Shown here one piece after another: positions 1 through 45,525 of a DNA stretch of 48,076 nucleotides. The DNA comes from a virus (Duplodnaviria; Caudoviricetes). Location of the stretch: IMG/VR virus record IMGVR_UViG_3300026138_000005, positions 1 through 48,076 of that record; one strand, written 5' to 3'. The stretch's first letter is position 1. Each line of letters opens with the position of its first letter. The translations under genes were made by a program, and so were the position numbers. The notes below the pieces were generated by a model. That model did not search any database, was not told the DNA's origin, and saw only the letters and a program-made list of their open reading frames with translations.

Positions 1-1
1 T

Positions 2-1354
2 AATTACGAGCCTAATGCAATAAATGACAAGGTCGTTTTTTATGAAACATTAATTACTAACCTTTTAATTCATGGCAATGGCTTTGCAATTATTGAAAGG
101 GATAGAAATACTTATAATGTTGATTCCTTAAGGTTGCTGCATCCTGATATCGTTACGGTTAAGGTTTTAAAAAATGGCAACATCCGTTATGAAATAAATC
201 AGCTTGGAGGTACAAAGAAATTTTATAGACCTGATGAAATAATCCATTTACAAGGTTCGACTACTAATGGGTTTTTAGGCTTTAGTACTATTGATTTAAA
301 TAGGTCTATTTTTGAATTGGCTTTGCATACCATTAATTTTGGAAAGGCGTATTATCAAAATGGTGGTTTTTTAAGTGGTGTAATTATGCACCCATCTAGC
401 TTGTCTGATTCAGCACATAAAAGGTTAAAAAATAGCCTTAGTCGTTATTCGGGTAGTGGCAAAGCTGGTAAGCAGTTAATCTTGGATGAAGGTATGAGTT
501 ATGAAACTTTGACCATTAGTCCAGCACAGGCGGGATTTGTTGAAGTTAATAATTATTTGATCGGTGAATTTAGCCGTATTTTTGGAGTTCCTCCATTCCT
601 ATTGCAAGACTTATCAAAGTCCACGATGCAAAATGTTGAGAGTTTAAACCTTGCATTCGTTAAGCATACTGTCATAGAACATTTAAACAAGCTAGAAAGT
701 GAGTTTAGTAGGAAGCTGCTAACTGAAGCCGACAAAATGGCTGGTTATTGTATTAAGCTAAATTTAGACGATTTATTAAAAGCTGATAGCAAAACAAGAG
801 GCGAATATTTAAGAAACTTATTTAATATTGGAGCGGTAAATATTGATGAAATCAGAATGATGGAAGGGCTTGTTCCACTTAATACAGATGGAAGTAAAAA
901 GCACTTCGTTCAAGTCAATATGGGTAATATTGAGGATGATTATTTAGGGCAGAAAAACTCTAATGAAGAAAGAAATTTACAATCAAAAAAGGGATGCGAT
1001 TGTTTGGGTTATGTTGATGACTCTGATTATTATGATGTACCACAAGAACGAAATGCTAAAACTTACAATGATTACCCTGAGTCAGTTGTTAATAATGCTA
1101 AAAGAGGTATAAAATTAAATGAGGAGGTTAACAACAAATGTGCTACTCAAGTAGGAAAAATAAGGGCTAGGCAATTAGCAAACAAAGAGCCTTTGAGTAT
1201 GGATACAATAAAAAGAATGTATTCTTATTTAAGTAGGGCTGAAGAATATTATAACCCAAGCGATACGAAAGCTTGTGGAACGATCTCGTATTTACTATGG
1301 GGCGGTAAATCTGCAAAAACTTGGGCAGCATCAAAAATAAAAGATAATGAATAA
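2..1354 (+). CDS. HK97-family phage portal protein (5'-truncated) with extra C-terminal domain
   Basis: Frame of ORF 134..1354 is open back to base 2 (NYEPNAINDKVVFYETLITNLLIHGNGFAIIERD). HK97 portal motifs: EIIHL, NGFLGFS, YYQNGGFLSGVI, GKQLILDEGMSY, SRIFGVPPFLL, NIDEIRMMEGL. Confidence 0.95.
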   Translation, partial: NYEPNAINDKVVFYETLITNLLIHGNGFAIIERDRNTYNVDSLRLLHPDIVTVKVLKNGNIRYEINQLGGTKKFYRPDEIIHLQGSTTNGFLGFSTIDLNRSIFELALHTINFGKAYYQNGGFLSGVIMHPSSLSDSAHKRLKNSLSRYSGSGKAGKQLILDEGMSYETLTISPAQAGFVEVNNYLIGEFSRIFGVPPFLLQDLSKSTMQNVESLNLAFVKHTVIEHLNKLESEFSRKLLTEADKMAGYCIKLNLDDLLKADSKTRGEYLRNLFNIGAVNIDEIRMMEGLVPLNTDGSKKHFVQVNMGNIEDDYLGQKNSNEERNLQSKKGCDCLGYVDDSDYYDVPQERNAKTYNDYPESVVNNAKRGIKLNEEVNNKCATQVGKIRARQLANKEPLSMDTIKRMYSYLSRAEEYYNPSDTKACGTISYLLWGGKSAKTWAASKIKDNE

Positions 1355-1931
1355 TAAACAATTTTTTCCAAGCGTAGAACTTAGAGCATATATGTCTGAA
1401 GATGAAGACAAAATGCTTTTAGAAGGATATGCAATAGTTTTCAATAGTGAATCAAGGGATTTAGGCGGTTTTACTGAAGTAGTTAAAGAAAACGCTTTAG
1501 ACAACGCATTAAATAGAAATAGTGATGTATTGGCTTTGTATGGTCATGACTATGCTAATGTATTAGGCAGACAATCGGCTGGTACTTTAAAACTTGACAA
1601 AGACGAAAAAGGTATTAAGTTTATGCTTGATTTACCTAATACGCAACTAGGTCGAGATGTTTATACACTTGTTGAACGGGGCGATCTTAGGGGCAATTCT
1701 TTTGGTTTTACTGTCGAAAAGGATTCCTGGGATAAAGTAGGTGACAAGGTAATACGGACTATTGAGCAAGTTAAGGACTTGTTTGAGATTAGTATTGTAA
1801 GCCTACCCGCTTATGAAGCTACGGAATTAGTTAAAAGAAGTTATGAGGATTTTACTACTGAGCCAGAGGTTGAAGAACCTTGTGAAAAAGAGGCTTTAGT
1901 ATATCCTCAATCTATTTTGAAACATCTTTAA
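1347..1931 (+). CDS. HK97-family prohead maturation protease
   Basis: LEGYAIVFNSESRDLGGFTE, ALYGHD..VLGR, GNSFGF, LFEISIVSLPAYEAT; lies between portal and capsid. Confidence 0.95.
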   Translation: MNNKQFFPSVELRAYMSEDEDKMLLEGYAIVFNSESRDLGGFTEVVKENALDNALNRNSDVLALYGHDYANVLGRQSAGTLKLDKDEKGIKFMLDLPNTQLGRDVYTLVERGDLRGNSFGFTVEKDSWDKVGDKVIRTIEQVKDLFEISIVSLPAYEATELVKRSYEDFTTEPEVEEPCEKEALVYPQSILKHL

Positions 1932-1954
1932 TATTAAAGTAAATATTTTTTTTT

Positions 1955-3115
1955 ATGAAACTTAAAAACTTGAAAGAGCAAGAAGCAGCAATCAAAGCTG
2001 AACTTACTGCTTTGTCTAACATTGAGGATCGTGCTTTGAATGCTGAGGAAGCTGCAAAGTCACAGGAATTAATCGCAGAGTTGAACAATGTAGCACAGTC
2101 TATTGAAGTTCAAGAAAGAATTGCAAACTTCACTGAGGAAGTTGCAGATGTTGAAATTACTCCAGCTATTGAGGTAAACCAAATGGAAGCATTTGAAGCA
2201 TACCTTAGAAATGGTAATAAAGGACTAAACGCTGAAACTCGTGCAAACCTTGTATCTGCTTCAGATGCTAATGGTGGCTACATTGTTCCAGATGAATTCC
2301 GTCAAGAACTATATGAAGCATTAAAGTACTACTCAAATGTAATTGATGTAGCTACTTTGGTTTCTACTTCTCATGGTAGAAATATTGATATGCCAACAGT
2401 TGACGAAACTGCGGTTCTTGCTGGTTGGGGTACTGAATCAGCTTTGGTTTCTGCTACTGACATGACATTTGGTTCTGTACAAGTAGGGGCTAATATGCTT
2501 AGAACTATGGTTCTACTATCTATTGAGTTAATCCAAGATAATGATGTGAACTTGACTGGGCAGATTGCTCGTTTGTTTGCTGATCGTTTTGGTCGTGCTT
2601 TAGAAGAAGCATTCACAAATGGTAACGGAACATCACCTAACCCAACAGGATTCATGAACGGAATCACTACGGGTGTTACTGCGGCTTCTGCTACTGCTTT
2701 CACTCGTGAAGAACTAGTAGGGCTTATCCACTCAGTAGATAAAGCATACAGAGCTAATCCATCTTTCCGTATTGTTATGAATGATGCTACATTGGCAGAA
2801 GTTCGTAAACTTGCATTTGGAACTGGCGATGATCGTCCACTATATCAAGAGGGTAATGCAACAACTGGAGAACCTACAAGAATTGAAGGTGTGCCAGTAA
2901 TGATCAACAACGCTATGCCTGATATTGCAACAGGTACTAAGCCGATTGCGGTTGCTGATTTCTCTAAGTTTATCATCCGTCAGGCTGGTTCTTACAACTT
3001 CCGTAGATTAGATGAGCGTTATGCTGATAATTTACAAGTTGCTTTCTTAGGATATGCAAGATTTGATTCTAAAGTTATTGATGCGGCTGCTTTCCGTTGT
3101 TTAACGATGGCTTAA
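1955..3115 (+). CDS. HK97-fold major capsid protein with N-terminal coiled-coil delta domain
   Basis: Coiled-coil N-terminus, AFEAYLR, GGYIVP, SIELIQD, FTNGNGT..PTG, IEGVPV, ADFSKFII, FLGYARFD. Confidence 0.96.
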   Translation: MKLKNLKEQEAAIKAELTALSNIEDRALNAEEAAKSQELIAELNNVAQSIEVQERIANFTEEVADVEITPAIEVNQMEAFEAYLRNGNKGLNAETRANLVSASDANGGYIVPDEFRQELYEALKYYSNVIDVATLVSTSHGRNIDMPTVDETAVLAGWGTESALVSATDMTFGSVQVGANMLRTMVLLSIELIQDNDVNLTGQIARLFADRFGRALEEAFTNGNGTSPNPTGFMNGITTGVTAASATAFTREELVGLIHSVDKAYRANPSFRIVMNDATLAEVRKLAFGTGDDRPLYQEGNATTGEPTRIEGVPVMINNAMPDIATGTKPIAVADFSKFIIRQAGSYNFRRLDERYADNLQVAFLGYARFDSKVIDAAAFRCLTMA

Positions 3116-3150
3116 TTAATAGCATAGTTTTTAATATAAATTAGAGGGGG

Positions 3151-3183
3151 GGGTTGCTGCTGCGATAGTGGCAGCCCTTTTTT
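3151..3183 (+). terminator. Rho-independent terminator after major capsid gene
   Basis: GGGTTGCTGCT-gcgat-AGTGGCAGCCC 11-bp stem (with G-U pairs) followed by TTTTTT. Confidence 0.8.
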
Positions 3184-3198
3184 AAAACCATTATAAAG

Positions 3199-3456
3199 AT
3201 GCAAATTAAACTTTTAAAAACTTTGATTGGTCAATTTGGCGGTAATATTGGCGATGTTATTGATGTGCCTATATATGTAGCAAACAGATATGTAGAAGTT
3301 GGCTATGCCGAAAGATATAAGCCTTGTAATTGTGACGATTGCAAAGATGGTGAAGATTGCCCAGAAGAACAAAAAATTGAGGTTGCAACAGTTGAACCAA
3401 TTATTGAAACTGCTGAAGTTAAACCAAAGCGTAGAAAAAGAACTACAAAAAAATAA
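3199..3456 (+). CDS. small hypothetical protein downstream of capsid
   Basis: 85-aa ORF with GDVIDV...A.RYVEVGYAE motif typical of this gene position, CNCDDC..C cluster and basic tail. Confidence 0.7.
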   Translation: MQIKLLKTLIGQFGGNIGDVIDVPIYVANRYVEVGYAERYKPCNCDDCKDGEDCPEEQKIEVATVEPIIETAEVKPKRRKRTTKK

Positions 3457-3459
3457 GAT

Positions 3460-3978
3460 ATGTTACGCAAATTAAGTTCTAAAGATTTAACCAGTTTGGA
3501 TGTCGTTAAGGATCACCTAAAGGTAGATTATACTGAGGAGGATTCTTTGATAAATGGCTACATTGAAACTGCCCATAATTTTGTTGAGGATTACACCAAT
3601 ATAGCTATTGGAGTTCAAAACTTTGAGGAGCATTTAACTGCTGATATTACTGAGGAATATGTGTTTTTAAGTATGAACCCATTGGTAAGTATTACTAGCG
3701 TTGTTGCTATTGATGAAGTTGACGGAACTGAAGAAGATGTAACTGCGGATATTATAAATATTACCAATGCATTAGGTACAAGGTTAAAAACCGATAAAAA
3801 GAAGTCTTACAAGGTTACTTATAGTGCTGGGGTTGCATTGGCGGACATACCTAAACAGATGCATCAAGCTATTCTTTTAAGTGTGAGTGATATGTTTGAA
3901 AATAGGGTGGAAAAGGTTAAACAAAAAAGAACAAGCGTAGAATATTTATTAAACCAAGTAAGCATTAAAAGAATATGA
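3460..3978 (+). CDS. head-tail connector (HK97 gp6 / SPP1 gp15-like)
   Basis: SLDVVKDHLKVDYTEEDSLINGYIETA..FVEDYT, VTYSAG, IPKQMHQAILLSVSDMFENR. Confidence 0.9.
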   Translation: MLRKLSSKDLTSLDVVKDHLKVDYTEEDSLINGYIETAHNFVEDYTNIAIGVQNFEEHLTADITEEYVFLSMNPLVSITSVVAIDEVDGTEEDVTADIINITNALGTRLKTDKKKSYKVTYSAGVALADIPKQMHQAILLSVSDMFENRVEKVKQKRTSVEYLLNQVSIKRI

Positions 3979-4322
3979 TTGGCAAGTTAGATAGTCGTAT
4001 TGAATTTTTGCAAAAAAGCATAGTGAGAGATGCTATTGGGGGGGAAACTGTAACTTATGTTACTTTAAAATCTACTTGGGCGTATGTTATTAAACCAACA
4101 GGCGAAGATAAAAATAAGGAGTTGAGCGGGAGGCAAGTCCCTGTAAATGAATTAGATTTTGTTATTAGGTATTTTATTGGTTTGACTGAAGATATGATCA
4201 TAAAGTATAATGGGGTTTTAGGTGAGAGGTTTTACAAGATAGTAAGCATAAATGAGGAGTTTGAAGAAAGAAGAAATGGGTATATAAGGATAACTGGACA
4301 AAAATTTGACTTAGAGAAATAA
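3975..4322 (+). CDS. head closure / head-tail adaptor (SPP1 gp16 / HK97 gp7-like)
   Basis: IGKLDSRIEF...RDAIGGE...WAYV...FVIRY...DMII.Y...YKIVSI; follows the gp6-like gene with ATGA overlap. Confidence 0.88.
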   Translation: MIGKLDSRIEFLQKSIVRDAIGGETVTYVTLKSTWAYVIKPTGEDKNKELSGRQVPVNELDFVIRYFIGLTEDMIIKYNGVLGERFYKIVSINEEFEERRNGYIRITGQKFDLEK

Positions 4323-4332
4323 AAAATAGAAT

Positions 4333-7300
4333 ATGGGTATATTTAGCGGTGGTTCTTTTCCTACATCTGGGGGAACTGTTATAATAACACAAGATGGATA
4401 TCAAACGCTTAATTTAACTGGAAATATTCTCACCATAAGTGGAAGCAATAGTTCCGTTGACCTTAGTAGTTATTTAGATGATACAAATACCACTAACACA
4501 TCTTTGACATTAAATGCTTCTAATGTATTAACCTTGACGGATTCAGACAGTGGGACTGTCACTGTTGATTTAACATCATTGGTGACTGCTGCTGGTGGTA
4601 CAGCAGAATCAACACATATACCAGTTAAAAATACATCAGGTGCTACAATAACAAAAGGAACTCCTGTTTATATTACTGGCAATGTTGGTTCAAGTAATAG
4701 GCTACAGATTGCCCCTGCTGATGCTTCTGATCCTGCAAAAATGCCTGCTATTGGATTGCTAGAAACAGACTTGATAAACAATGCTGAAGGCTATGTGGTT
4801 CAAGGTGGGTATCTTACAAATATCACAACCGATATAATAGATGGCACATCAACATCATCTAATGATACAGTTTATGTAAAAGTTGGTGGAGGTATTACAA
4901 TGACCAAACCAACAGGATCAACAAATTATATTCAGAATATAGCAAAGGTTGCAAGGGTAGGTTCGGGCAGTAGTGGTTCATTGATTGTTTCATCAATATT
5001 AAGGACAAATGATATACCTAACTTAGCTGATGGTCAAGTATGGGTGGGATCAACAACATACCCAGTAAGCACAGATTTTAATTTGCAAGAGGTTACTGAT
5101 GGGGGGAATACGACTACTAATGATATAACAATTGGTGGAGGTGGTACAACTGCAACAGATGCAGTATTAATATTAGATGGTGGAAATGCTAGTGGAGGAG
5201 AAGCTTATATATCATTACAAAGAAATAGCGTAGGAGGTTTTCTATTAAACCATAGTGATAGTAGCATACAAGTAAGAGGAACTACCGACTTGCCGATGTA
5301 TTTTTACACTAATAATTCAATAAAACAAACTATTTTATCCAATGGCAATATTGGCATCGGGACTACGAGTCCGAGTGAGAAACTTGAAGTTGCTGGAAAT
5401 ATTCTTCTTACTACTAACACAGGTGCATCAAGAACGCTATATACAGGTGGGGATACAAATTTACATATACAAACAAACACAGGGGATGTAAAGATTTTAT
5501 CTTCAAATGGTGGTAATAATCTTATGACTTTGTTAAATGGTGGCAACATAGGCATAAACGAATCTTCTCCCGATGCGAAACTTCACATAGTTGGTTCAGG
5601 TAATACTTCGGGAACTACTGCTTTGTTGGTTGAGAATAGTCTAAGCTCAGACTTGGTTAAGGTTTTGGATAACGGCAATGTTTCAATAGGTGGACAAACT
5701 GCAACTCAAAAACTAAACTTATCAGGAAATTTTTTAATAGGTAATAATAACGAAATAAGATGGAAGGATAGTGGAGGCACTGAAAGAACTGCAATAGAGT
5801 TAGATAGTTCTAATGATTTCAATTTAGGTACTTCGGCAAGTGGTGCATTGAGGTTTATAGGTGGTGGAAGTTATACAGAAAGGATGCGAGTACACACCAA
5901 TGGCAACATAGGCATAGGCACTACGAGTCCGAGTAGGTTACTTGATGTAAATGGAATACAGGGTTGGTCATTAAGTGACAATGAAGTAGCTTATTTAAAT
6001 CCTACCGCAACTGGAACAGATTTTGCACTTAAAAATGCAGCTGGAACTAATGTAATAAGATTTGATGGCAGACCTAATAACAATTCTTGGATTAATAACG
6101 GAGGTTCATTTGGTATTGGAACTTCGAGTCCGAGTGCGTTTTTAGAAATAGCTAACCCAACTTATTCAAATGCAACAGTATTGTTAGGTAGGCAATCAGG
6201 TTATCCAACAATTCAAGGTAATGGAACATCAGGTGGTCAATGGTTAATGTTAGATAGTAACGGAGGATATTTAGCATTGAATAACCACGTAACGGATAAT
6301 GTTATACTTGCTTGGGGAGGAGGAGATGTAGCAGTAGGTACTGGTAGTCCTCTTGCTAGATTTCACGTTAAAGGTTCAGGCAATACATCGGCTACTACTG
6401 CATTATTAGTAGAAAATAGCAGTGGAACGGATACTTTTAAAGTATTAAATGATGGTCAAGCACAATTAGGTAGCTATGGTAGTGGTACATTTACAGGTAC
6501 AGTTTCTAAAATATTAGCAGTAGAAAGTGGTGGTAATATCATAGAAACTACTTTAAGTGATTTGAGTGGTGTAGACGGATCAGGTACTGCCAACTATTTG
6601 CCTAAATGGTCTGACTCAGACACACTAACAGATAGTTTAGCTTATGATGATGGAGGTGGTCAGTTTGTATTTGAAGGAAGCTTTTTTACTGGTCAAAGTG
6701 TAGCAACAGATTCCACAAATAAATCTATAAGGCTTGCCACTAAGCACTATACAAATGCTGAAGAACCTTTTGTAGGTTTATTGGCTACAAGTACAAGTAC
6801 TGCAAATATAGTTGAAATTGGTGGTGGTACTACATTGGGCAATGCTGCGACCACAGTTTCTTTTAGAACAGCATCAAACAATACAACTGTCACTGGTACA
6901 GAGAGAATGCGTATCACTTCCACAGGAGCGGTTGGCATTGGGACTTCGAGTCCAAGTTATAAGTTTACTGCTTATGGTAGTTCTTCTAATAGCGAAATAG
7001 TTGCTTCTTTTGGTAGTGCAAATAATCAAAATGATTATACCGCTATTGGTTTAAGTGGGTTTATTGCAAGTAATGGAGCAACAAAAGCAGGTTTAGCTTT
7101 AGAAAGAACAGCTACTTATGGAACTGGAAAACTCCACTTCTTAAATAATAGTACTTTAGATAACTCAGATATGACTTTGAGTGATTCTAAAATGGTTATC
7201 TTAGGTGGTGGCAACGTAGGAATTGGAACTTCGAGTCCGAGTGCTAAGCTTCACATCCAAAACGCAGCAGCATCTAATTATGCACTAAGATTTAATTATG

Positions 7301-8232
7301 CTGACACTACTGATGGTGGCGGTTTTTATGAGTCTACTTCAAGTGGATTAAGTTTATTTTTAAAAGATGACACAGGCACAACTAAAACAGTAATTGCTCC
7401 CGATGGAGATTCTTATTTTAATGGAGGTAATGTGGGCATTGGGACGTCGAGTCCAGCTGAGAAGCTTGATGTAAATGGTAATATTAAATTAGGGGCACAA
7501 ATTAACGCCAGTGTTGATGCTGCTTATTTAATTGGCAAATCACATACTGCAACAGGATATAATGACCCATTAATAGCGTTAATGTCCTCAACTGCGGCTG
7601 CAAATTCTTTAACAATAGGAGGCGGTTCTTCAGTTTACAATACTGCAACAAGTATAAGTTTTAATACTTCTGCTAATACTAATACACCTACGGGAACAGC
7701 AGCTATGTTTATTAATAGTAGTCAAAACGTGGGAATAGGGACTACGACTCCGAGTGCTAAGACTCACATAGTTGGAGCCGGTAACACTACATCTACTACG
7801 GCTTTACTAGTAGAAAGTAATAATGGAACAGACAGGTTAAGGGTTACCGATGGATCTGAGGTTTTTGTGAACGCTTCTACTTTGCATTATGGAGCGGACG
7901 TGGCATCCACTACGCTAGGGTACAAAGAGTTTCTTACTGATGTTGATTATGGCACTCTAAACACAGGAGCTATTTCTGTTTACACAAGTGAATCTACTAG
8001 AGACACAATAATGTGTGATTATAAAATATATGATGGTACTAATATTCGAGTAGGTACTGTTACCGCTACAACCGATGGAACTAGTGTAGACTATACAGAC
8101 ATAAGGAAAGCGGAAGTTGGAGATACTTCTGATATGTATTTTTACGCTCAGTTGTCTGGAAGTAATTTGCAGTTAATATTCTATAGAGGATCAGCAGGTT
8201 ATGATGCTAAATATATAATTAAAAACTTTTAA
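4333..8232 (+). CDS. long modular fibre/spike protein 1
   Basis: 1299 aa, G/S/T/N-rich, about 9 GN[IV]GIGT[TS]SP repeats; N-terminal VKNTSGATITKGTPVYI...MPAIGL block. Confidence 0.85.
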   Translation: MGIFSGGSFPTSGGTVIITQDGYQTLNLTGNILTISGSNSSVDLSSYLDDTNTTNTSLTLNASNVLTLTDSDSGTVTVDLTSLVTAAGGTAESTHIPVKNTSGATITKGTPVYITGNVGSSNRLQIAPADASDPAKMPAIGLLETDLINNAEGYVVQGGYLTNITTDIIDGTSTSSNDTVYVKVGGGITMTKPTGSTNYIQNIAKVARVGSGSSGSLIVSSILRTNDIPNLADGQVWVGSTTYPVSTDFNLQEVTDGGNTTTNDITIGGGGTTATDAVLILDGGNASGGEAYISLQRNSVGGFLLNHSDSSIQVRGTTDLPMYFYTNNSIKQTILSNGNIGIGTTSPSEKLEVAGNILLTTNTGASRTLYTGGDTNLHIQTNTGDVKILSSNGGNNLMTLLNGGNIGINESSPDAKLHIVGSGNTSGTTALLVENSLSSDLVKVLDNGNVSIGGQTATQKLNLSGNFLIGNNNEIRWKDSGGTERTAIELDSSNDFNLGTSASGALRFIGGGSYTERMRVHTNGNIGIGTTSPSRLLDVNGIQGWSLSDNEVAYLNPTATGTDFALKNAAGTNVIRFDGRPNNNSWINNGGSFGIGTSSPSAFLEIANPTYSNATVLLGRQSGYPTIQGNGTSGGQWLMLDSNGGYLALNNHVTDNVILAWGGGDVAVGTGSPLARFHVKGSGNTSATTALLVENSSGTDTFKVLNDGQAQLGSYGSGTFTGTVSKILAVESGGNIIETTLSDLSGVDGSGTANYLPKWSDSDTLTDSLAYDDGGGQFVFEGSFFTGQSVATDSTNKSIRLATKHYTNAEEPFVGLLATSTSTANIVEIGGGTTLGNAATTVSFRTASNNTTVTGTERMRITSTGAVGIGTSSPSYKFTAYGSSSNSEIVASFGSANNQNDYTAIGLSGFIASNGATKAGLALERTATYGTGKLHFLNNSTLDNSDMTLSDSKMVILGGGNVGIGTSSPSAKLHIQNAAASNYALRFNYADTTDGGGFYESTSSGLSLFLKDDTGTTKTVIAPDGDSYFNGGNVGIGTSSPAEKLDVNGNIKLGAQINASVDAAYLIGKSHTATGYNDPLIALMSSTAAANSLTIGGGSSVYNTATSISFNTSANTNTPTGTAAMFINSSQNVGIGTTTPSAKTHIVGAGNTTSTTALLVESNNGTDRLRVTDGSEVFVNASTLHYGADVASTTLGYKEFLTDVDYGTLNTGAISVYTSESTRDTIMCDYKIYDGTNIRVGTVTATTDGTSVDYTDIRKAEVGDTSDMYFYAQLSGSNLQLIFYRGSAGYDAKYIIKNF

Positions 8233-9118
8233 TAAATGGCAAATAAGGCATTAAACATAAAGGATAGGTTAGCGGTTAGAGGTGCTATTGTTGAACCAAG
8301 CTCAATGATAGGAGGTAATTATTTATTCTCCTTGCAGCCACATATTGAAGGAGGTGATTTAGACGGTGCTTTAAATTTAACATCTGGAGCTAGGGGTAGC
8401 TACACTATTGAAACAATAGATGATCCAGATGCTCCTTATGGTAAAGTTGTTAAATTCCCTACAGGTCAACAAAGTTTTGTTGCAGCTTACGATATTGATA
8501 TTCCAGTAGACGCTGGAGATAGAGTTTATATAGAAGCTACTTATATGATCCCTGCAACAGACACAGGGACACAAAGTAATTTTTATTTAGGTGTTAACGG
8601 ATTGGACAAAGATAAGAAACTGATAAATTCTAACTTTGGTCTAATAACATATCCTGTTAGTAACATAACATTAACAGCAGATGGTAATTGGTATACTGTA
8701 GGTGGTTACGCTACAATTCCTTCTTCTCACACTCCTTATAATGGCTCTGATGGTGGAGCTGTTAGGTATATTAAAAATTATGTTCTTGTAAATTATGGAG
8801 CAGGAGATAGAGAAGTTTACCTTTCTAATGTTGTAGTCCGTAAAGTAGAGGCTTTTAAGGATAATGCAGATATTTATTTTAGAGGAAACGTGGGCATTAG
8901 CACTTCGAGTCCTGCTTCTAAATTAGATATTAACATAGCACTTGCATCAAGTGATGGTATTACTATTGATACTAATGATGAAGTTTACAGTATTTGGTCA
9001 AATTCTAATTTAGGGGGGTTAGCTATTAATGCTAATACTGTGGGAAATGCCACAAGATACGATTTATTTATAAAACACTCTAATGGCAATATAGGTATAG
9101 GCACGTCGAGTCCGAGTG
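5362..9118 (+). repeat. dispersed in-frame direct repeat, core CGAGTCCGAGTG (9 copies)
   Basis: Cores start at 5366, 5924, 6125, 6947, 7232, 7448, 7745, 8906, 9107. The copies at 5366, 6125, 7232 and 9107 are exact 12/12; the others have 1-4 mismatches. Confidence 0.9.
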
Positions 9119-10983
9119 CGCCTTTGGAAATAGCAAATCCATCCGCAGAAGTGGATGCAATTATTGTCGGTAGAAACTCAGGTAACGCTTCTATTAGCGG
9201 AGGAACAGGAGATGGAGCTTACTTGATCTTAGATAGTAGTGGTCAATACTTATCTTTAAACCATTATATATCTGATGATATTATTATAGGTAATGGCGGT
9301 GGAGATGTGGGTATTGGGACGACTTTGCCTCAATCTCGGTTGCATATATATACAGGAAACGGAGGGACATACATTCCAAATACTAACCACGATGATTTAA
9401 CTATTGAAGGCAGTACAAATATAGGTTTGCAATTATTTAGCCCTGCTAATACTTATCAATACATTGCTTTTGGAGATCCAAGTGCAGTAAATGCAGGGTA
9501 CATTAGATATTATCACGGTAATAATGAAATGGTTTTTAGGACTAATGGTGGCGATAGAGTCACTGTTAATTCTACTGGAGACGTAAGATTGCATTCTTAT
9601 GGTAGTGGTTCTAATACAGGTACAGCAGCCTACACACTGGCAGTGGATGCAAGCGGTAATATCATAGAAACATCAGGAGGAGGTAGCACACCAACGCTTC
9701 AAGAAGTTACCACAGCAGGAAACACTACCACAGATGATGTAGGTATTCAGGTGTCCAATCCTGTTTCTGCTTTACACATAGGCGATGGAAATAATACAAT
9801 ATCATCTGCATTATATTCAACTGACATAGTTAATGTTTCTGCACAGAATACAGCACCCGGTGTTAACATCATTTCAGCAGGTACATCTTCATTTAACAGA
9901 GGTGTATTTAAAGCTACAAGAGCAAAAGGAAGTCTTGCTTCTCCAAGTGCTCCTACAAGTGGAGACTATGTATTTAGTTTGTTAGGAGCAGCATATGATG
10001 GAACTTCTGCTTCACCTGCAACAGCAGGTGTAGAAATGCTTATTGATGGTGCTGTTTCACCAACTGCTGTGCCACAAAGAATAGAGCTCCAAACAGGTAC
10101 AGGAATAAGTAGGTCTACAAGAATGACCATCAAATCTGATGGAGATATTGGAGTTAATACTACAAATCCCCTAGCCAAACTTCATTTAGTTGGTGCAGAT
10201 ACATCAGTAAACACTGATGCACTTTTTGTTGAAAATAGTAGTGGCAATGATTTATTTAAAATTACTAACAGTGGTAATTTCTATATGAGTAGTGCTTCAA
10301 GATTTGCTTCCATTGTAATTAATAATGTAGATACAGTAGGTACAGGTAATTATAGTACAATAGTAGGCTACCAAGCAGGTGATGGTACAAATACGAATGG
10401 TCTTTATATGACTGCAATAGGAGCAAGAGCAGCACAACTTACAAATGGTGGTACATTCTCTGTAGCAGTAGGTATGAACTCAGCTAGAAATGCAGGGTCA
10501 TTGAGTAATGCTGTAGTTGTTGGTATGAATGCAGTAAATAATTCAGGTGGTTTTAGTAATTCAGTAGCTGTTGGTCGTTCAGCAGCAGAGCAATCAAATT
10601 TAACTACTTCTACTATTGTAGGTTATTATGCAGGTAGAGCAATGGGTGCAACTCAAAGGTCTAATAATGTATATATAGGCTACAATGTTGCTAGTTCATC
10701 TAATAATCAAAGTGGGAATACTTTTATAGGTTCTAATATTCAATCAAGTAGTACAGAAGCATTAAATGATACAATCATCATTGGTTCAAGTAGTCAGGAA
10801 AGACTAAGAGTAAGTGCTGATGGAGATGTTACTTGGACAGGTGGAAACTATATGAAGATTCAAACAGGAACGACAGCATCAAGACCTTCGTCTCCTGTAG
10901 CGGGAATGATTAGATTTAACACAACAACAGGAAAATATGAAGGATATGTAAATTCAATAACAGGTTGGGTTGACTTTCATTAA
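8236..10983 (+). CDS. long modular fibre/spike protein 2
   Basis: 915 aa; N-terminal beta-rich carbohydrate-binding-like block, GIGTSSP repeats, [AI][IV]GxxA repeats near the C-terminus, terminal GTTASRPSSPVAGMIRFNTTTGKYEGY. Confidence 0.85.
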   Translation: MANKALNIKDRLAVRGAIVEPSSMIGGNYLFSLQPHIEGGDLDGALNLTSGARGSYTIETIDDPDAPYGKVVKFPTGQQSFVAAYDIDIPVDAGDRVYIEATYMIPATDTGTQSNFYLGVNGLDKDKKLINSNFGLITYPVSNITLTADGNWYTVGGYATIPSSHTPYNGSDGGAVRYIKNYVLVNYGAGDREVYLSNVVVRKVEAFKDNADIYFRGNVGISTSSPASKLDINIALASSDGITIDTNDEVYSIWSNSNLGGLAINANTVGNATRYDLFIKHSNGNIGIGTSSPSAPLEIANPSAEVDAIIVGRNSGNASISGGTGDGAYLILDSSGQYLSLNHYISDDIIIGNGGGDVGIGTTLPQSRLHIYTGNGGTYIPNTNHDDLTIEGSTNIGLQLFSPANTYQYIAFGDPSAVNAGYIRYYHGNNEMVFRTNGGDRVTVNSTGDVRLHSYGSGSNTGTAAYTLAVDASGNIIETSGGGSTPTLQEVTTAGNTTTDDVGIQVSNPVSALHIGDGNNTISSALYSTDIVNVSAQNTAPGVNIISAGTSSFNRGVFKATRAKGSLASPSAPTSGDYVFSLLGAAYDGTSASPATAGVEMLIDGAVSPTAVPQRIELQTGTGISRSTRMTIKSDGDIGVNTTNPLAKLHLVGADTSVNTDALFVENSSGNDLFKITNSGNFYMSSASRFASIVINNVDTVGTGNYSTIVGYQAGDGTNTNGLYMTAIGARAAQLTNGGTFSVAVGMNSARNAGSLSNAVVVGMNAVNNSGGFSNSVAVGRSAAEQSNLTTSTIVGYYAGRAMGATQRSNNVYIGYNVASSSNNQSGNTFIGSNIQSSSTEALNDTIIIGSSSQERLRVSADGDVTWTGGNYMKIQTGTTASRPSSPVAGMIRFNTTTGKYEGYVNSITGWVDFH

Positions 10984-11009: not shown

Positions 11010-11336
11010 ATGGCATTAGAATATTCAAAAGACCTTTATGGTAAAACATTTGCAAATGCATATGTAAGAATTTCACAGATTAGAACTAGGCAAGATGTTC
11101 TACAAACTGAAGTGGGATCAGAAGAAAATATCGAACAAGTTACAGAAAAAATTATTACAGGAGAATGTATTATTCAGGTATTCCCTGATCAGGCAACTAG
11201 AGACGCAGGTGGGGAAACTATGAAAATTGACAGGCTAGAAATTACCTTTGATAAAACATCAACAGATAATTTTTACGCTCAAGCGTATTCTCACTTGAAA
11301 ACATTAGACGAGTGGTCTGGAGCTACTGATGTGTAA
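11010..11336 (+). CDS. fibre-associated small protein (possible assembly chaperone)
   Basis: MAL...NAYVRI...NFYAQAYSHLKTLDEWSGATDV pattern, commonly seen right after fibre genes. Confidence 0.65.
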   Translation: MALEYSKDLYGKTFANAYVRISQIRTRQDVLQTEVGSEENIEQVTEKIITGECIIQVFPDQATRDAGGETMKIDRLEITFDKTSTDNFYAQAYSHLKTLDEWSGATDV

Positions 11337-11374: not shown

Positions 11375-11821
11375 ATGAGGCTCAAAATATTAATACTACT
11401 TATACTTTGTGGTTATTTAGATTGCTATAGCCAATTTTGTGGCAGCGATAGGACTCTTATTATACCTTACGGTATTCGTAGTGTACATATTTATAGTGAC
11501 ACCACAAAGGTTTGTATTAATAAATATGGCAAGTATTTGCACATTGATAGAGGTTACGATTTGTCTGTTTATAAATTCCATACAACACGATGGATTAAAC
11601 ACAGATATAAGAATAAAAGATATCCTAATTCTGTTAATTATTTTGTCTCTGATAAACATTTATACATAGAATATTGGATAGTTAACAACAATAGGAATGT
11701 ATTGGTTTACATAGAAAAATACAATTTAATTAATTATGCCAACAAAAAAGAAAACAACAACAAGACGCAAAGCTACAACAAAAAGGAAGCCTGCTGCAAA
11801 GCGTGCAACGTCCAAACCTAG
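11375..11821 (+). CDS. hypothetical protein with putative signal peptide
   Basis: MRLKILILLILCGYLDCYS|Q; fills the intergenic gap but overlaps the next gene by 86 nt, so the 3' end is uncertain. Confidence 0.45.
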   Translation: MRLKILILLILCGYLDCYSQFCGSDRTLIIPYGIRSVHIYSDTTKVCINKYGKYLHIDRGYDLSVYKFHTTRWIKHRYKNKRYPNSVNYFVSDKHLYIEYWIVNNNRNVLVYIEKYNLINYANKKENNNKTQSYNKKEACCKACNVQT

Positions 11822-12110
11822 ATCCAAAACAGCTAGGGCTAAAAAGTCTATGAAGTGCGGAGAGGTAAGGAAGAGTACAAGAGCAGGAAAGAAAGTAATG
11901 AAGAAAGTCTGTAAAGGAGGTAAATCCAAAATGGTTCACGCTGGTGATTCCTCTATGAGGCATAACTACTCAGATAAGGCTAGGAAAAACTTCAAAGCCA
12001 GACACAAGTGTTCAACTGCAAAAGCAGGAACTGCTAGGCATTTGGCTTGCAACACACTATGGAAAAAAGGAGGATCTAAAAAAACAACAGGTAAAGGTAA
12101 ACGCAAGTAA
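11736..12110 (+). CDS. small basic protein with conserved HAGD...ARKNFKARHKC...ARHLAC..LW domain
   Basis: K/R-rich 124-aa ORF; the motif resembles an uncharacterised domain widespread in aquatic viruses. Confidence 0.8.
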   Translation: MPTKKKTTTRRKATTKRKPAAKRATSKPRSKTARAKKSMKCGEVRKSTRAGKKVMKKVCKGGKSKMVHAGDSSMRHNYSDKARKNFKARHKCSTAKAGTARHLACNTLWKKGGSKKTTGKGKRK

Positions 12111-12112
12111 TT

Positions 12113-12325
12113 ATGCCACAAAAGAAAAAATCAAACAGCAAGAAAAAAAGTACTGTAAATGCATCAGGTAATTACACTAAGCCTACAATGCGTAAGAGGC
12201 TTTTTGAAAAAATTAAAGCAGGTAGCAAAGGCGGTAGATCCGGTCAGTGGTCAGCACGTAAAGCACAGATGTTAGCAAAGCAGTACAAAGCTGCTGGCGG
12301 TGGTTATAAAAGTAAAAAGAAATAA
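12113..12325 (+). CDS. small basic protein (DUF5872-like N-terminal half)
   Basis: NYTKPTMRKRLFEKIKAGSKGGRSGQWSARKAQMLAKQYKAAGGGY; family name recalled, not searched. Confidence 0.8.
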   Translation: MPQKKKSNSKKKSTVNASGNYTKPTMRKRLFEKIKAGSKGGRSGQWSARKAQMLAKQYKAAGGGYKSKKK

Positions 12326-12328
12326 GTA

Positions 12329-12619
12329 ATGGCAAAAACCAAAAGACAAAAAAGTTTAGATAGGTGGACTAAACAGAAGTGGAGAACTGCTTCAGGTAAA
12401 AAGTCTAGTGAGACCGGTGAGGTATATGCACCTGCTAAAACTATTTCTAAACTTAAAAGCACAAAAGCAGGCAGAAAAAAGTTAGCAGCAGCTAATAGAA
12501 AAAAAAGAGCTGCTACTAAAGCTGGTAAGCAACACGCTAGTCACGGTATACATAAAGGTAAAAACCGTACAGGCGTTAAAAAGAAAACTACTAAAAAGAG
12601 AACTTCTAAAAAGAAATAA
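12329..12619 (+). CDS. small basic protein (DUF5872-like C-terminal half)
   Basis: QKSLDRWTKQKWRTASGKKSSETGEVYAP...KKRAATKAGKQ. Confidence 0.8.
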   Translation: MAKTKRQKSLDRWTKQKWRTASGKKSSETGEVYAPAKTISKLKSTKAGRKKLAAANRKKRAATKAGKQHASHGIHKGKNRTGVKKKTTKKRTSKKK

Positions 12620-12621
12620 TT

Positions 12622-12771
12622 ATGACTTGCAAAAAATGTAAAGGTAAAAGAAAGTGTAACTGTAAAAAATATAGAAACACAGGTAGAAAGACTATGGCTA
12701 CCAAGCGTCGTAAGTCAGTAGGAAAAAAAGCTGCTAAAACAGCTAATTCAAAAATCACTAAAAAAAGATAA
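12622..12771 (+). CDS. 49-aa Lys/Cys-rich micro-protein (not in ORF track)
   Basis: Manual translation MTCKKCKGKRKCNCKKYRNTGRKTMATKRRKSVGKKAAKTANSKITKKR*; 2-nt gaps to both neighbours. Confidence 0.7.
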   Translation: MTCKKCKGKRKCNCKKYRNTGRKTMATKRRKSVGKKAAKTANSKITKKR

Positions 12772-42129: not shown

Positions 42130-43232
42130 AATGCACCAAAATTTTTATCTGTTTTAGTAATCATAAAACGTTTTTTGTAGTTGACGTTGTACCCATCAAC
42201 AGGTATCTTGGTGTAATTGTTCAAAGTCATATAGCCTTTAATGGCTTTGTCTATAGATAGCTTTTCCGATTGAGCTTCTTTGGCTTTATGCTCTGCATCC
42301 ATACGCTTTTGTACGAGATCGTTAATCATTACGTGGCTATCACCATATGGTATGAACTCATTACGTATGTGCTCTCCTGCTATACCCCTCATATCCCTCT
42401 CCTGCTTGTGTAACTCAGAATAAAATTGCTGAAGCTCGTCGTCTGCTATCACGTCTAGTATATGAGAATACTCCTGCTGTATGCTGTATATGTTGTCGTA
42501 CTTATCATTCAGTGACAAATCTGAATCAACAATCTCCTTCCCTTTAATCATTGCTTCGTGAAACTGAAAGCAGGTGTTGTGTATACGACTTTGGTACTCT
42601 GGGTCTTCCATAATCTCACGTTGGATTACGTGTCTTCCGTCCCTAACCAATGTAAGTATAGCATACTTTGTACCGGTCATCATCATATATGCTTGAACTT
42701 GGCAATTGTATTTCTCTGGATACCCACACTCAAATTTGTCACAATAGTACCCACCAATTGTCTTACATTCCCATACCCCTCTGCCAAACATAGGAGATAA
42801 TTTATCATCGTGTACTACTCTCCCATCTAAATTCAATCCGAAGTACGGAAAGTCTTTATGGAACAGCGTGTAAGGAACCACTCTAATCTTCCTAAATGTT
42901 TTACCACTATAGAAGTTAGCTGCCCACTCCCCTGTAGGATCGTAGTACTCTGCCTGTCTCATAATGATATCTTCATAAAGGTGACCGGTAGCAGTAAATA
43001 TGTTTCCGGCAAAGTGTTTTTGCTTAAGACCTATCTTCTCAAACCAAAGAGTCATTGGGTCGGTGTATGAGTTAAGACCCATAACCGTACCTACATCTGA
43101 GCCTCCAATTTTAAAAGAAGCTGTACGAAAAGCAACCCACTCTGCCATCGACATCTTAGTTACGTTTACACCACGAAGACCTTTCTTTGGGAATAAACTT
43201 ACTCTTGATGTTTTATGACCGGCTACTACCAT
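42126..43232 (-). CDS. YqaJ/lambda-exonuclease family recombination nuclease
   Basis: EW..FR...IGGSDVGTVMGLNSY...LW.EK.G, G..YE, NLDG, WECKT, P..Y.CQVQ.YM..TG. Confidence 0.9.
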   Translation of the reverse strand: MVVAGHKTSRVSLFPKKGLRGVNVTKMSMAEWVAFRTASFKIGGSDVGTVMGLNSYTDPMTLWFEKIGLKQKHFAGNIFTATGHLYEDIIMRQAEYYDPTGEWAANFYSGKTFRKIRVVPYTLFHKDFPYFGLNLDGRVVHDDKLSPMFGRGVWECKTIGGYYCDKFECGYPEKYNCQVQAYMMMTGTKYAILTLVRDGRHVIQREIMEDPEYQSRIHNTCFQFHEAMIKGKEIVDSDLSLNDKYDNIYSIQQEYSHILDVIADDELQQFYSELHKQERDMRGIAGEHIRNEFIPYGDSHVMINDLVQKRMDAEHKAKEAQSEKLSIDKAIKGYMTLNNYTKIPVDGYNVNYKKRFMITKTDKNFGAL

Positions 43233-43768
43233 CCGTATTGTTTTTTGATTCTATCTTTACTTGGCTGCGCAGACGGATTTTTCATTAATTCAATCTGAGC
43301 CTTACAGAATTTAATGTACTTAGGGTCTTGCTGCTTGTTTGCTATGTTCTCCATAGCTGCCTTTATACCCTCGTTCCTGTTCTCTGCATTGTTAAAGTGG
43401 TTCCATAATTTATGGAGCAACTTTTGTTGGTAAGCCAATGCCTCTTCAAGTGTGTGTATTGTTTTACCGGTCTTCCTGTCATCCTTCAAAGCAAAAGCTA
43501 TGGCACGACCCACTGCAATTGTTTCTGCCCAACCCACAAAGTCTTGGTCAAGATCCGAGTCAGCTATTTGGAACTTAGAACCAGAGCCAATAATTTGGTT
43601 GCCATTAATAATCTTAGCCGTTGCCGTTACAGCCATACGACCTGTAGGATGATTTATTACACTTACATTAGTGTCGATACCTGCGTTAGGATATTCTTTG
43701 CGCAGCTCTTCCATACGCTCACTAATCTGTTTGTAATCACTAGACATTTCAGATGCTTGCTTTTGCAT
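43226..43768 (-). CDS. putative single-strand annealing protein (Rad52-superfamily-like)
   Basis: Y..I.ER..E....YP...I.T...A.A.I....GSG...AETIAVGRAIA; immediately upstream of the exonuclease. Confidence 0.5.
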   Translation of the reverse strand: MQKQASEMSSDYKQISERMEELRKEYPNAGIDTNVSVINHPTGRMAVTATAKIINGNQIIGSGSKFQIADSDLDQDFVGWAETIAVGRAIAFALKDDRKTGKTIHTLEEALAYQQKLLHKLWNHFNNAENRNEGIKAAMENIANKQQDPKYIKFCKAQIELMKNPSAQPSKDRIKKQYGW

Positions 43769-43990: not shown

Positions 43991-44428
43991 TTATTCTGTA
44001 ACCAATTGCAAAGGCAATTGAGGATCGATAGAAAGATAAAGGTCTTCTGAAAGAAATTCTTCTACTTTAGAAGCTCTGAAAACTTTATTCTTTTGCCACC
44101 CCACACTCTCTGCGTACTCTAAAGCTTCGTACCTGTATCTGAAATACTTAGCCTCAGTATAATCGTCGTTTGCGGAAACCCATCGCCTGTCATATTCCCT
44201 GCAAGTTCTTAGTAGGTCACGCATACTCAAAGATTTAACTTCTTCTTTTTTGAGTATTACAATTCCATCCACAGCGTAACCATTATACACTGCACTACAT
44301 AAGGACTTACCTTTCTCTGGACATCCTAAAAATTTAGCCACTTCTGTTATTGACCTTTTCTCTGTTATGAAAGAAGCGGATGCCGTAAATACTACATATC
44401 CGTTCCCCTTTTGACCTCTTCTTGCCAT
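43991..44428 (-). CDS. hypothetical protein, possible NUMOD1-like DNA-binding helix
   Basis: RSITEVAKFLG and FRYRYEALEY segments. Confidence 0.55.
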   Translation of the reverse strand: MARRGQKGNGYVVFTASASFITEKRSITEVAKFLGCPEKGKSLCSAVYNGYAVDGIVILKKEEVKSLSMRDLLRTCREYDRRWVSANDDYTEAKYFRYRYEALEYAESVGWQKNKVFRASKVEEFLSEDLYLSIDPQLPLQLVTE

Positions 44429-45525
44429 TACGCTAATTTTGATAATTTACTAATTAATATTTCGTCTGTTGTTTGCAAGTAATGTTTCTCAAAAACTTGC
44501 GAGGATTTGTGGTAACTTAGTCTATTGCGGATCGTTGCATCGTCAAGACCTCTGGAGCGCCAAAGGTTGATGCCTGTCTTACGGAGTACGTGGGAGGATA
44601 CCACTTTGTTTAGTGGCTCCTTCCTATGCACGTACCTACCATACCCAATCTCAATTTTCACATTAATCTTTTCGGTTCCTACGAACTTTTTTATTTCTGA
44701 ACAATACCTGTCGTAGTTTTTATTCGGCAGATTGTTAGAGTCAAACAGATTTTTTACCTGCACCCAAAGGTCTTCTCTAATCATTCTCCTGCAAAGCTGT
44801 GAGTTCTTACCTATGGTAACGATATATTTTTTATCACCTGATTCCTCAAAGCTATCTTTGTTTATTTTGTACAGGTCATCCCATCGCATACATCCCTCTA
44901 TCTGCAAAGCCATAAGCACAGGGTAAGCTGCTCCAAACTTTGCAGCATTTAGGATGTTTTCAATCTGCGAATACGGAAGAACTATAGGTTCTAAGTCTGC
45001 CGACTTGCTCTTACAGGCTGACATTGGCATCCTGCATCCGTATGTTTCTTCTACAACCTTAAGCACACGCTTAAGAGAGTTTAAATAAGCAGAGACAGAC
45101 GAGGTTTTATAGTCCTCAATAAGGCATTCTTTATAGAATGTAATCCTTTGTCTTACTTGAGTGTTAAATTCAGCTGACGTTCCGGATTTCAAAACGCTCA
45201 AGTCAACAGCTTCTCCCCCAAGAGTGTTGACCCATATCTGTCTTGCTTGAAAATCAACTGATGACGTTGCAACCTCACCCCAGAGATCCGATAAATACGC
45301 AGCGCCTCCGCCACGTATAACATCTTTGACCTCATTAATGGTTACGCAGTCAATCAGTTTTTTTATTAGTGAATTAGCTTCGTGTACGGAGTAGTCACTC
45401 CCTATTACTTTGTTCCTTTTTACAGAGGCATCCCCTATTTTCACACCTGTCGAAAGAGTTTTGATAGGGGCAGTAGTTCTTAAATAAAGCGTCCCTTTCC
45501 TGTTGAAGAATTTTAATTTCATCAT
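44428..45525 (-). CDS. tyrosine recombinase (phage integrase family)
   Basis: Catalytic residues in order: GCMR(WDDL), K(NS), HVLR(KT), LSYH...HY; N-terminal LYLR...LSTGVKI arm-binding-like region. Confidence 0.82.
   Translation of the reverse strand: MMKLKFFNRKGTLYLRTTAPIKTLSTGVKIGDASVKRNKVIGSDYSVHEANSLIKKLIDCVTINEVKDVIRGGGAAYLSDLWGEVATSSVDFQARQIWVNTLGGEAVDLSVLKSGTSAEFNTQVRQRITFYKECLIEDYKTSSVSAYLNSLKRVLKVVEETYGCRMPMSACKSKSADLEPIVLPYSQIENILNAAKFGAAYPVLMALQIEGCMRWDDLYKINKDSFEESGDKKYIVTIGKNSQLCRRMIREDLWVQVKNLFDSNNLPNKNYDRYCSEIKKFVGTEKINVKIEIGYGRYVHRKEPLNKVVSSHVLRKTGINLWRSRGLDDATIRNRLSYHKSSQVFEKHYLQTTDEILISKLSKLA

What the first reader, a model, noticed from the sequence alone, without database searches (positions are those of the whole stretch)
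5362..9118. DNA-level conserved CGAGTCCGAGTG core at fibre module boundaries: candidate receptor-binding module shuffling system
Seen: nine GIG/ST[T/S][S/T]P repeats across both fibre genes (cores at 5366, 5924, 6125, 6947, 7232, 7448, 7745, 8906, 9107) share AC[TG]-[AT]CG-A[GC]T-CC. Six of them continue CCG-AGT. They keep CG-ending codons (ACG/TCG, CCG) that look rare elsewhere in these AT-rich genes, and consecutive serines are encoded TCG then AGT. Protein-level selection alone would not fix these synonymous sites, and the sequences between cores are divergent. Inference: the cores are in-frame, direct-orientation crossover sites allowing deletion, duplication or exchange of fibre modules. 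Either the phage exonuclease/annealase pair (short homology) or the tyrosine recombinase could act on them.
Basis: partly seen in the sequence, partly recalled or inferred. Interest (0 to 1): 0.8.

Follow-up and report, generated by a model that had tools for sequence, protein, structure and literature searches.

The report
Codon-locked swap seams in phage fibres
Two tail-fibre genes of an uncultured aquatic phage are chains of unrelated modules joined by a short motif repeatedly written in the same rare codons, and close relatives carry replaced, lost or reordered modules that mostly begin and end at this motif, likely through short-homology recombination rather than a dedicated site-specific switch.

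Summary
Observation confirmed: nine in-frame, same-strand copies of AC[TG]-[AT]CG-A[GC]T-CC, none elsewhere in the window. The rare codons are far above context-matched background. Corrections: the titled 12-mer is exact in only 4 copies, and 5 more protein motifs lack the core. Relatives 97-99% identical in head genes carry different module strings. 13 of 20 independent sharp homology breaks fall at a motif (6.4 expected), and public contigs show modules replaced seam to seam. The seams are therefore real exchange points. A fixed-site recombinase is disfavoured: breaks spread over about 36 nt and fit no single cut position. A different phage type with the same spelling and swapped arrays has an exonuclease and Sak pair and no detected tyrosine recombinase. 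Other phages spell the motif differently. No rearranged form was seen within the source population (contigs only). Best reading: short-homology recombination that homogenises the seam, as known for T-even fibre motifs. Unexplained: only the 3' 15 nt are locked here. The scan noted such seams before in other genomes.

The parts
4333..8232 (+). Fibre gene 1, 1299 aa: N-terminal region shared with relatives up to about 5121, then 9 motif copies separating modules of about 66-200 aa
   Evidence: PHROG tail fibre, E 8.5e-20; Bd2133, PDB 8OND, E 1.5e-6
8236..10983 (+). Fibre gene 2, 915 aa, 5 motif copies; absent from L063 and L010, present with a replaced first module in L065
5121..5127 (+). Commonest break point with relatives. 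L144, L206, L065 and L012 carry a motif copy here; the window carries a degenerate stretch
5362..5376 (+). Core 1, ACT ACG AGT CCG AGT
5920..5934 (+). Core 2; start of the module shared with L010 (5909-6104)
6121..6135 (+). Core 3; end of the L010-shared module and start of the L065-shared block (6133)
6943..6957 (+). Core 4 (CCA instead of CCG)
7228..7242 (+). Core 5; left edge of the 489-nt block replaced by 210 nt in run X16
7444..7458 (+). Core 6 (CCA GCT)
7741..7755 (+). Core 7 (ACT at the Ser position); start of the block shared with L065, L068 and X16 (7732)
8902..8916 (+). Core 8; left edge of the single module replaced in L065, X8 and X16
9103..9117 (+). Core 9; right edge of that replacement (identity resumes at 9111)
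5542..5574 (+). Protein motif copy without the DNA core (GNIGINESSP); four more start at 6322, 9301, 9733 and 10141
11010..11336 (+). Small gene on the right flank of the variable region, about 80% identical in L063, L010 and L212
42126..43232 (-). YqaJ/RecE-like exonuclease; inferred part of the exchange machinery
   Evidence: E 2e-38; PF09588, E 8e-16
43226..43768 (-). 180-aa neighbour of the exonuclease, slr1353-like family; candidate annealase, not confirmed
44428..45525 (-). Divergent tyrosine recombinase with conserved candidate catalytic residues (R214, K240, H312, R315, H339, Y349); no link to the seams shown

Best explanation
The two fibre genes are strings of unrelated modules joined by a roughly 36-nt motif-coding seam at which related phages differ by whole modules, and the exchange is likely done by short-homology recombination (probably the phage exonuclease with a candidate annealase), which would also keep copying one spelling of the seam through the gene pool. 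Steps: (1) Shown: the motif recurs at module junctions; it resembles the capping-loop motif of beta-helical fibres such as Bd2133. (2) Shown: homology between relatives starts and stops at seams more often than chance, with replacement, loss and reordering of modules. (3) Shown: breaks are spread over the seam, not at one bond. (4) Inferred: the seam is the only shared DNA between unrelated modules, and a crossover there keeps both frame and fold. Seams that match the common spelling recombine more often, so the spelling reinforces itself within a lineage. (5) Inferred: exchange happens between co-infecting phages or resident copies over population time, not as a programmed switch. (6) Untested: which enzyme acts, and whether host range changes.
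For: L063 and L010 are 98.8% and 96.8% identical to the window over 1-5127 but carry different module strings. 13 of 20 independent sharp breaks among 9 sequences lie within -36..+15 of a motif Pro, expected 6.4, p 0.0015. Modules I-J-K in L063 appear as K-x-I-J in L212 at 92-99% DNA identity. Contigs of two studies replace 8902-9111 by 301 nt (X8, X16), and X16 replaces 7242-7732 by 210 nt. In 12 junctions examined base by base, shared upstream modules lose identity as early as -30, -28 and -25, while shared downstream modules become continuous only from -27, -20, -1, +3 or +9; no single cut position satisfies both. Spelling is array-specific: third-position identity is 0.47-0.74 within arrays vs 0.30-0.42 between GC3-matched arrays, and other arrays lock the 5' half or use other codons. 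G001 (95% complete, different portal and capsid) has a Sak-like annealase and exonuclease VIII and no integrase match among 49 ORFs; its 97%-identical variant L144 carries three core-spelled seams and a different array. Precedent: T-even adhesin exchanges occur within or near conserved motifs (PMC3157838, passages); Rad52-like recombinases act on short, diverged homology (PMC3945230, passages).
Against: Only the 3' 15 nt are locked in this lineage (0.69 vs 0.28). The two freest core positions are non-synonymous (W at -6, N at -2), which plain homogenisation does not predict. Exact identity between window cores is short: median 11 nt, maximum 23, below the 23-27 nt minimal pairing segment quoted for Red-beta (PMC3945230). 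7 of 20 breaks are not at seams. Selection for folded, in-frame products could concentrate surviving breaks at motifs whatever the mechanism. The putative annealase was not confirmed. The break test used 9 hand-picked sequences and my own thresholds; a first, cruder run gave 25 of 75 ends vs 10.3 expected. All relatives are metagenomic assemblies, where chimeras at repeats cannot be fully excluded.
Confidence: 0.62

Rival explanations
1. The 15-nt element ACT-W-CG-A-N-T-CCG-AGT is a sequence-specific hotspot (binding, nicking or Chi-like site) that starts exchange. Branch migration or repair then spreads the crossover over the seam.
For: Synonymous positions are locked (-7 T 71%, -4 G 73%, -1 T 93%, +2 G 65%, +5 T 80% of 55 lineage rows) while non-synonymous -6 and -2 vary. 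29 of 37 independent downstream module classes have a core. The adjacent 5' half is free. The T before the Pro codon is enriched across phages (134 T: 22 C vs 246: 131 background).
Against: The spelling is not universal: in an unbiased viral sample of 190 seams, ACG is 35 (22 expected) and CCG 19 (25 expected). Exchanged seams in L065 lack the core. GANTC is not depleted in the genome (139 vs 145). There is no covariation for the GGAC/GTCC inverted repeat (p 0.65), and predicted DNA hairpins are weak and inconsistent.
Confidence: 0.17
2. The phage's divergent tyrosine recombinase excises and reinserts modules at the direct-repeat cores, like an integron or shufflon.
For: Tyrosine recombinase fold (lambda Int, XerA, XerH) with invariant candidate catalytic residues. 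The family is small (8 proteins), like the lineage-restricted spelling. The anatomy of a conserved arm beside a free arm recalls shufflon sites (recalled, not tested).
Against: No single crossover position fits. There is no core near the recombinase gene or anywhere outside the fibres. G001 has no homologue and no integrase family match, yet its variant shows the same spelling and swaps. No core-to-core deletion was seen in contigs of the source-like runs.
Confidence: 0.07
3. The shared spelling is only descent from recent module duplication. Breaks collect at motifs because only those junctions give folded fibres, and the DNA spelling plays no role.
For: AGY and TCN serines do not interconvert by one silent change, so AGT can persist by descent (established knowledge). 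Five window motifs lack the core, and some swaps involve core-less seams. 7 of 20 breaks lie elsewhere.
Against: Modules beside the cores are unrelated (0.33-0.34 identity) and the neighbouring G-N-V-G-I-G codons are at background identity (0.28), yet rare CG-ending codons persist in the core (0.69). Local codon-pair bias and restriction-site avoidance do not explain it.
Confidence: 0.14

Closest known systems
Recombinational shuffling at conserved motifs in T-even distal fibre and adhesin genes (gp37, gp38 glycine-rich motifs; Tetart et al. 1996, 1998 as cited in PMC3157838)
   Same: Conserved short motifs separate hypervariable segments, and exchanges occur within or near the motifs.
   Different: Here whole 60-200 aa modules change in number and order across two genes. 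The motif is a G-N-V-G-I-G-T-x-x-P loop, and its DNA is spelled in lineage-specific rare codons. The passages I read report no such codon lock.
Relaxed homologous recombination by phage Rad52-like recombinases (De Paepe et al. 2014, PMC3945230)
   Same: Short, diverged homology drives mosaicism, and an exonuclease with a possible annealase is encoded.
   Different: Those assays used homology of hundreds of bases. The seams here offer about 33 nt at about 73% identity, and the annealase is unconfirmed.
Bdellovibrio MAT fibres, e.g. Bd2133, PDB 8OND (Caulton et al. 2024, PMC10769870)
   Same: Same repeated motif (Bd2133 has GNLGLGTAAP, GLVGINTAAP, GNVGIGATAP), described as a capping loop of beta-helical trimeric fibres with exchanged tips.
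   Different: Those are cellular, signal-peptide surface proteins. In the passages read, the paper does not treat the DNA of the motif or exchange at it.
Site-specific fibre switches (Mu Gin, P1 Cin; R64 shufflon Rci; tyrosine-recombinase shufflons of Bifidobacterium prophages, PMC6109161, seen as listing only)
   Same: Repeated short DNA elements in a receptor-binding gene, and a tyrosine recombinase in the genome.
   Different: Sites here are all direct. Every module lies in an open frame, there are no silent cassettes, the recombinase is not adjacent, and crossovers are not fixed.

Membership tests
Conserved-motif tail-fibre mosaicism (T-even type) | Conserved motifs flank unrelated variable segments in a fibre gene | tested here: met
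   14 motif copies, flank identity 0.33-0.34; fibre match
Conserved-motif tail-fibre mosaicism (T-even type) | Exchange points between relatives fall in or near the motifs | tested here: met
   13 of 20 vs 6.4 expected; seam-to-seam replacements
Conserved-motif tail-fibre mosaicism (T-even type) | Exchange changes receptor or host range | not testable with these tools
   uncultured phage; host only inferred
Conserved-motif tail-fibre mosaicism (T-even type) | Dependence on homologous recombination functions | not testable with these tools
   exonuclease present; annealase unconfirmed
Invertible or shufflon fibre switch (Gin, Cin, Rci; features recalled) | Recombination sites in inverted orientation | tested here: not met
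   9 forward, 0 reverse
Invertible or shufflon fibre switch (Gin, Cin, Rci; features recalled) | Silent alternative cassettes outside the expressed frame | tested here: not met
   all cores lie inside two uninterrupted ORFs
Invertible or shufflon fibre switch (Gin, Cin, Rci; features recalled) | Recombinase gene beside the sites | tested here: not met
   recombinase at 44428-45525, about 35 kb from the last core in this linear, 80%-complete record
Tyrosine-recombinase site-specific system (features recalled) | One fixed 6-8 nt crossover overlap | tested here: not met
   breaks from -30 to +9 in 12 junctions; later conversion could blur this
Tyrosine-recombinase site-specific system (features recalled) | Recombinase with catalytic R-K-H-R-H/W-Y set | tested here: met
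   residues assigned by alignment and recalled motif; target unknown
Tyrosine-recombinase site-specific system (features recalled) | Mixed isoforms or excised circles within one population | tested here: inconclusive
   none in contigs of X1 or X3 or in L078; contigs drop rare variants
Integron-like cassette array (features recalled) | Long imperfect hairpin sites and an attI site beside the integrase | tested here: not met
   36-nt folds of -1.2 to -5.8 kcal/mol with differing structures; no core near the recombinase
MAT-like beta-helical fibre | Repeated capping-loop motif and similarity to Bd2133 | tested here: met
   PMC10769870 passages
MAT-like beta-helical fibre | Trimeric fibre structure | not tested

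The most novel reading that the evidence does not exclude
ACT-W-CG-A-N-T-CCG-AGT is a protein-recognised recombination hotspot hidden in the synonymous positions of a fibre motif. It lets several unrelated Bacteroidota-type phages draw fibre modules from one shared cassette pool: a coding-embedded, direct-repeat shuffling system without silent cassettes.
Probability: 0.17. Interest if true: 0.85.

Novelty: new variant of a known kind. Interest (0 to 1): 0.5.

Why it matters
The G-N-V-G-I-G-T-x-x-P fibre family is very common: about 13,000 stored viral stretches are estimated to hold one such motif, and it also occurs in CPR, DPANN and Bdellovibrionota genomes. This locus gives base-level evidence that the motif is where modules are exchanged and that exchange is frequent: flanks 97-100% identical, seams already mosaic. 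It also shows that two different phage types share a seam spelling and modules. That offers a sequence-level account of the hypervariable fibre islands seen in metagenomes, and a direct test of whether silent codons are selected for recombination compatibility. If a protein reads the core, it would be a new class of diversification system.

Tried and rejected
Restriction or methylation trigger at GANTC: not depleted (139 vs 145). Codon choice forced by restriction-site avoidance: context-matched background is still 0-8% G. Palindrome or hairpin: no covariation and weak folds. Universal spelling: searches suggested it (xCG 70 of 111 neighbouring seams), but that sample was seeded on the core; the unbiased sample shows only mild enrichment. 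PF00589 search of 27 records gave 0, including the window's own genome, so it is insensitive and carries no weight; 2 requested loci were not held. The phrog_1 search of 5 records did not include the own genome as a positive control. No other viral or cellular locus of the recombinase family was found, so its co-occurrence with the spelling could not be tested. Annealase identity: Foldseek, VIA-align (best Z 4.2), HHalign to a Sak and a PDB profile search were all inconclusive on a pLDDT-59 model. Loose ends and short-sided joints cluster near motifs but may be motif-only matches from other phages; they were not counted. No reverse transcriptase among the 39 ORFs scanned, so no diversity-generating retroelement. 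Left out of the break test: L064 and L078 (the window's own sequence); L066, L145, L211, L022, L023, L039, L040 (duplicates); L009, L011, L143, L012 (end at or just inside the array). Literature: searches for GIGTTSP, GNVGIG, VGIGT plus tail fib and a six-term search returned 0 papers. The listings did not suggest this system; those papers were not opened. Subscription papers are not covered, and Tetart 1996/1998 were seen only as citations. No supplements were read; Supplementary Fig. 18 of PMC10769870 may bear on the motif.
Full report
Setting. The window is a linear virus record, estimated 80% complete, 38% GC. It holds HK97-type portal, protease, capsid and head-tail genes (134-4322), two fibre genes (4333-8232, 8236-10983) and crAss-like tail genes. 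On the opposite strand lies a replication block with a primase-helicase, a YqaJ exonuclease, a 180-aa neighbour and a divergent integrase-like gene. A Bacteroidota host is inferred from the crAss-like muzzle domain and from a 54-nt, 85% match to Flavobacterium phages. Runs holding the fibre DNA are mostly estuarine, marine and freshwater, plus three labelled soil.

The observation. The nine cores are present as described, all on the + strand and at the same codon position. The rare codons hold up in matched context: NCG before A.T 9 of 10 vs 12 of 204, and CCG before AG 6 of 7 vs 0 of 25. The copies are not independent. Three corrections: the titled 12-mer is exact in 4 of 9; five further protein motifs lack the core (14 copies in all); and the lock covers only the 3' 15 nt (third-position identity 0.69 vs 0.28 in the G-N-V-G-I-G codons). 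The protein motif also occurs in Bdellovibrio Bd2133 (PDB 8OND, E 1.5e-6). Caulton et al. describe a similar motif as a capping loop of beta-helical fibres (PMC10769870; passages and section 12 read).

Are the seams exchange points? Yes. L063 and L010 are 98.8% and 96.8% identical to window 1-5127, then carry other module strings in a single fibre gene, and rejoin at the gene at 11010. L065 shares window blocks 4588-5121, 6130-6653, 7713-8901 and 9111-10808. I compared nine sequences (window, L063, L010, L065, L067, L144, L068, L206, L212), hand-picked from the loci then fetched as those with high-identity fibre blocks or several cores. Among them, 13 of 20 independent sharp breaks lie at a motif in at least one partner, against 6.4 expected (p 0.0015); seven do not. 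A cruder first run gave 25 of 75 vs 10.3. Modules I-J-K of L063 occur as K-x-I-J in L212. Contigs of other sequencing runs repeat the pattern: 8902-9111 is replaced by 301 nt in X8 and X16 (two studies), 7242-7732 by 210 nt in X16, and the 5121-6133 join appears in X5. The window's own array looks stable: L078 is 99.96% identical over 8288 nt, and X1 and X3 show no core-to-core joint. These are contigs, which drop rare variants.

Where is the crossover? I examined twelve junctions base by base, with the first base of the Pro codon as 0. Shared upstream modules lose identity at -30, -28 and -25 in several cases and near -12 to -10 in others. Shared downstream modules become continuous from -27, -20, -1, +3 or +9. 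A fixed site x would need every upstream end at or beyond x and every downstream start at or before x; no x fits, unless later conversion blurred the seams. In L063 vs L212 the module bodies are nearly identical next to seams that differ at 5-13 positions. This is what repeated exchange spread over about 36 nt would leave (inference). Three exchanged seams in L065 lack the core spelling.

Is the spelling universal? No. A sample seeded on the core suggested it. An unbiased sample of 190 seams from 131 of 142 loci shows ACG 35 (22 expected), AGT 84 (36 expected) and CCG 19 (25 expected); within-array identity exceeds between-array identity. Arrays have their own spellings, some locking the 5' half. 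Of 119 viral loci with the 15-mer, 15 are in the motif frame, and 3 have three or more core seams, all relatives of this phage (about a third of those loci are only 615 nt). In cellular genomes, 84 loci match a 21-nt version, mostly CPR and DPANN, and 102 of 268 neighbouring seams are core-like (seeded sample).

Which enzyme? The integrase-like protein has a tyrosine recombinase fold and invariant candidate catalytic residues in 8 sequences. Nothing ties it to the seams, and there is no core outside the fibre genes. G001, a 95%-complete phage with a different portal and capsid, has no homologue and no integrase match among 49 ORFs of 90 aa or more. It has one weak excisionase-family hit on a regulator-like protein, and it encodes a Sak-like annealase and exonuclease VIII. 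Its variant L144 is 97-98% identical on both sides of a different array with three core-spelled seams. L144 is a fragment, and a recombinase could come in trans. The window's exonuclease is confirmed. Its neighbour belongs to an slr1353-like family. Its helix, three strands, helix layout and E-T-x-A-x-G-R-A motif recall Rad52-like annealases from memory only; fold and profile tests were inconclusive.

What stays unexplained. Among 55 lineage rows (one a spurious opposite-strand match), synonymous positions of the core are locked while the non-synonymous W (-6) and N (-2) vary (54 rows). Exact identity between window cores is short (median 11 nt) against a quoted 23-27 nt for Red-beta (PMC3945230, passages). 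This keeps a sequence-specific hotspot alive at about 0.17. GANTC depletion, palindrome covariation and hairpins gave it no support.

Comparison with known systems. It works like motif-mediated shuffling of T-even fibre and adhesin genes (PMC3157838, passages; Tetart 1996/1998 seen only as citations) and fits flexible fibre islands in metagenomes (PMC7468147, passages). It fails the tested features of invertible switches, shufflons and integrons. Four searches returned no paper on this motif; subscription papers and supplements were not seen. Earlier notes of this scan describe similar codon-locked seams in other genomes. They are unchecked AI notes; they pointed me to the T-even and MAT comparisons and are not evidence.

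Verdict. A real feature and real module exchange at the seams. Mechanism most likely short-homology recombination with self-reinforcing spelling (0.62). A new variant of a known kind; interest 0.5.

Noticed in passing
window, whole: Near-total avoidance of restriction-like sites: GGNCC 0 vs 56 expected, CCNGG 2 vs 56, CATG 10 vs 303 (both strands), GGCC 0, CGCG 0, CTGCAG 0, GGTACC 0; GCNGC over-represented 154 vs 91. This suggests a host with several restriction systems.
   Followed up: partly
window 134-4322 and 13742-34167: HK97-type portal, protease, capsid and head-tail connectors are combined with crAss-like short-tail genes (muzzle domain PF25729) and a 4047-aa LPD38 protein; no tail tube or tape measure match was seen. 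An unusual hybrid virion plan.
   Followed up: no
window 11736-12934: A cluster of very Lys/Arg-rich small ORFs with an 83-nt duplicated start region (12664-12746 and 12852-12934); possible DNA-condensing proteins. One has a similar stretch in G001.
   Followed up: no
window 44428-45525: A small, divergent tyrosine recombinase family (8 proteins, 44% identity and above) missed by Pfam. It sits in the replication block, and no prophage relative was found in GTDB genomes. Target unknown.
   Followed up: partly
window 43226-43768: An slr1353-like (PF27148) protein directly beside a YqaJ exonuclease; may be an unannotated single-strand annealing family.
   Followed up: partly
L067/L145 (G001) vs window 4603-5640: A different phage type (GroEL/GroES-encoding, other portal) shares 1038 nt of the fibre gene at 92%, across one core and up to 71 nt past the next motif: recent fibre exchange between phage types.
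   Followed up: yes
window 5569, 6349, 7750, 10168 (Pro codons): A K-x-H-I-V-G-x-G-N-T-S-x-T-T-A-L-L-V-E module start recurs four times in the window (D4) and in most relatives, often just before the terminal domain.
   Followed up: partly
L503-L586: The same seam spelling occurs in fibre-like genes of CPR bacteria, DPANN archaea, Bdellovibrionota and Bacteroidota genomes, mostly as single exact copies.
   Followed up: partly
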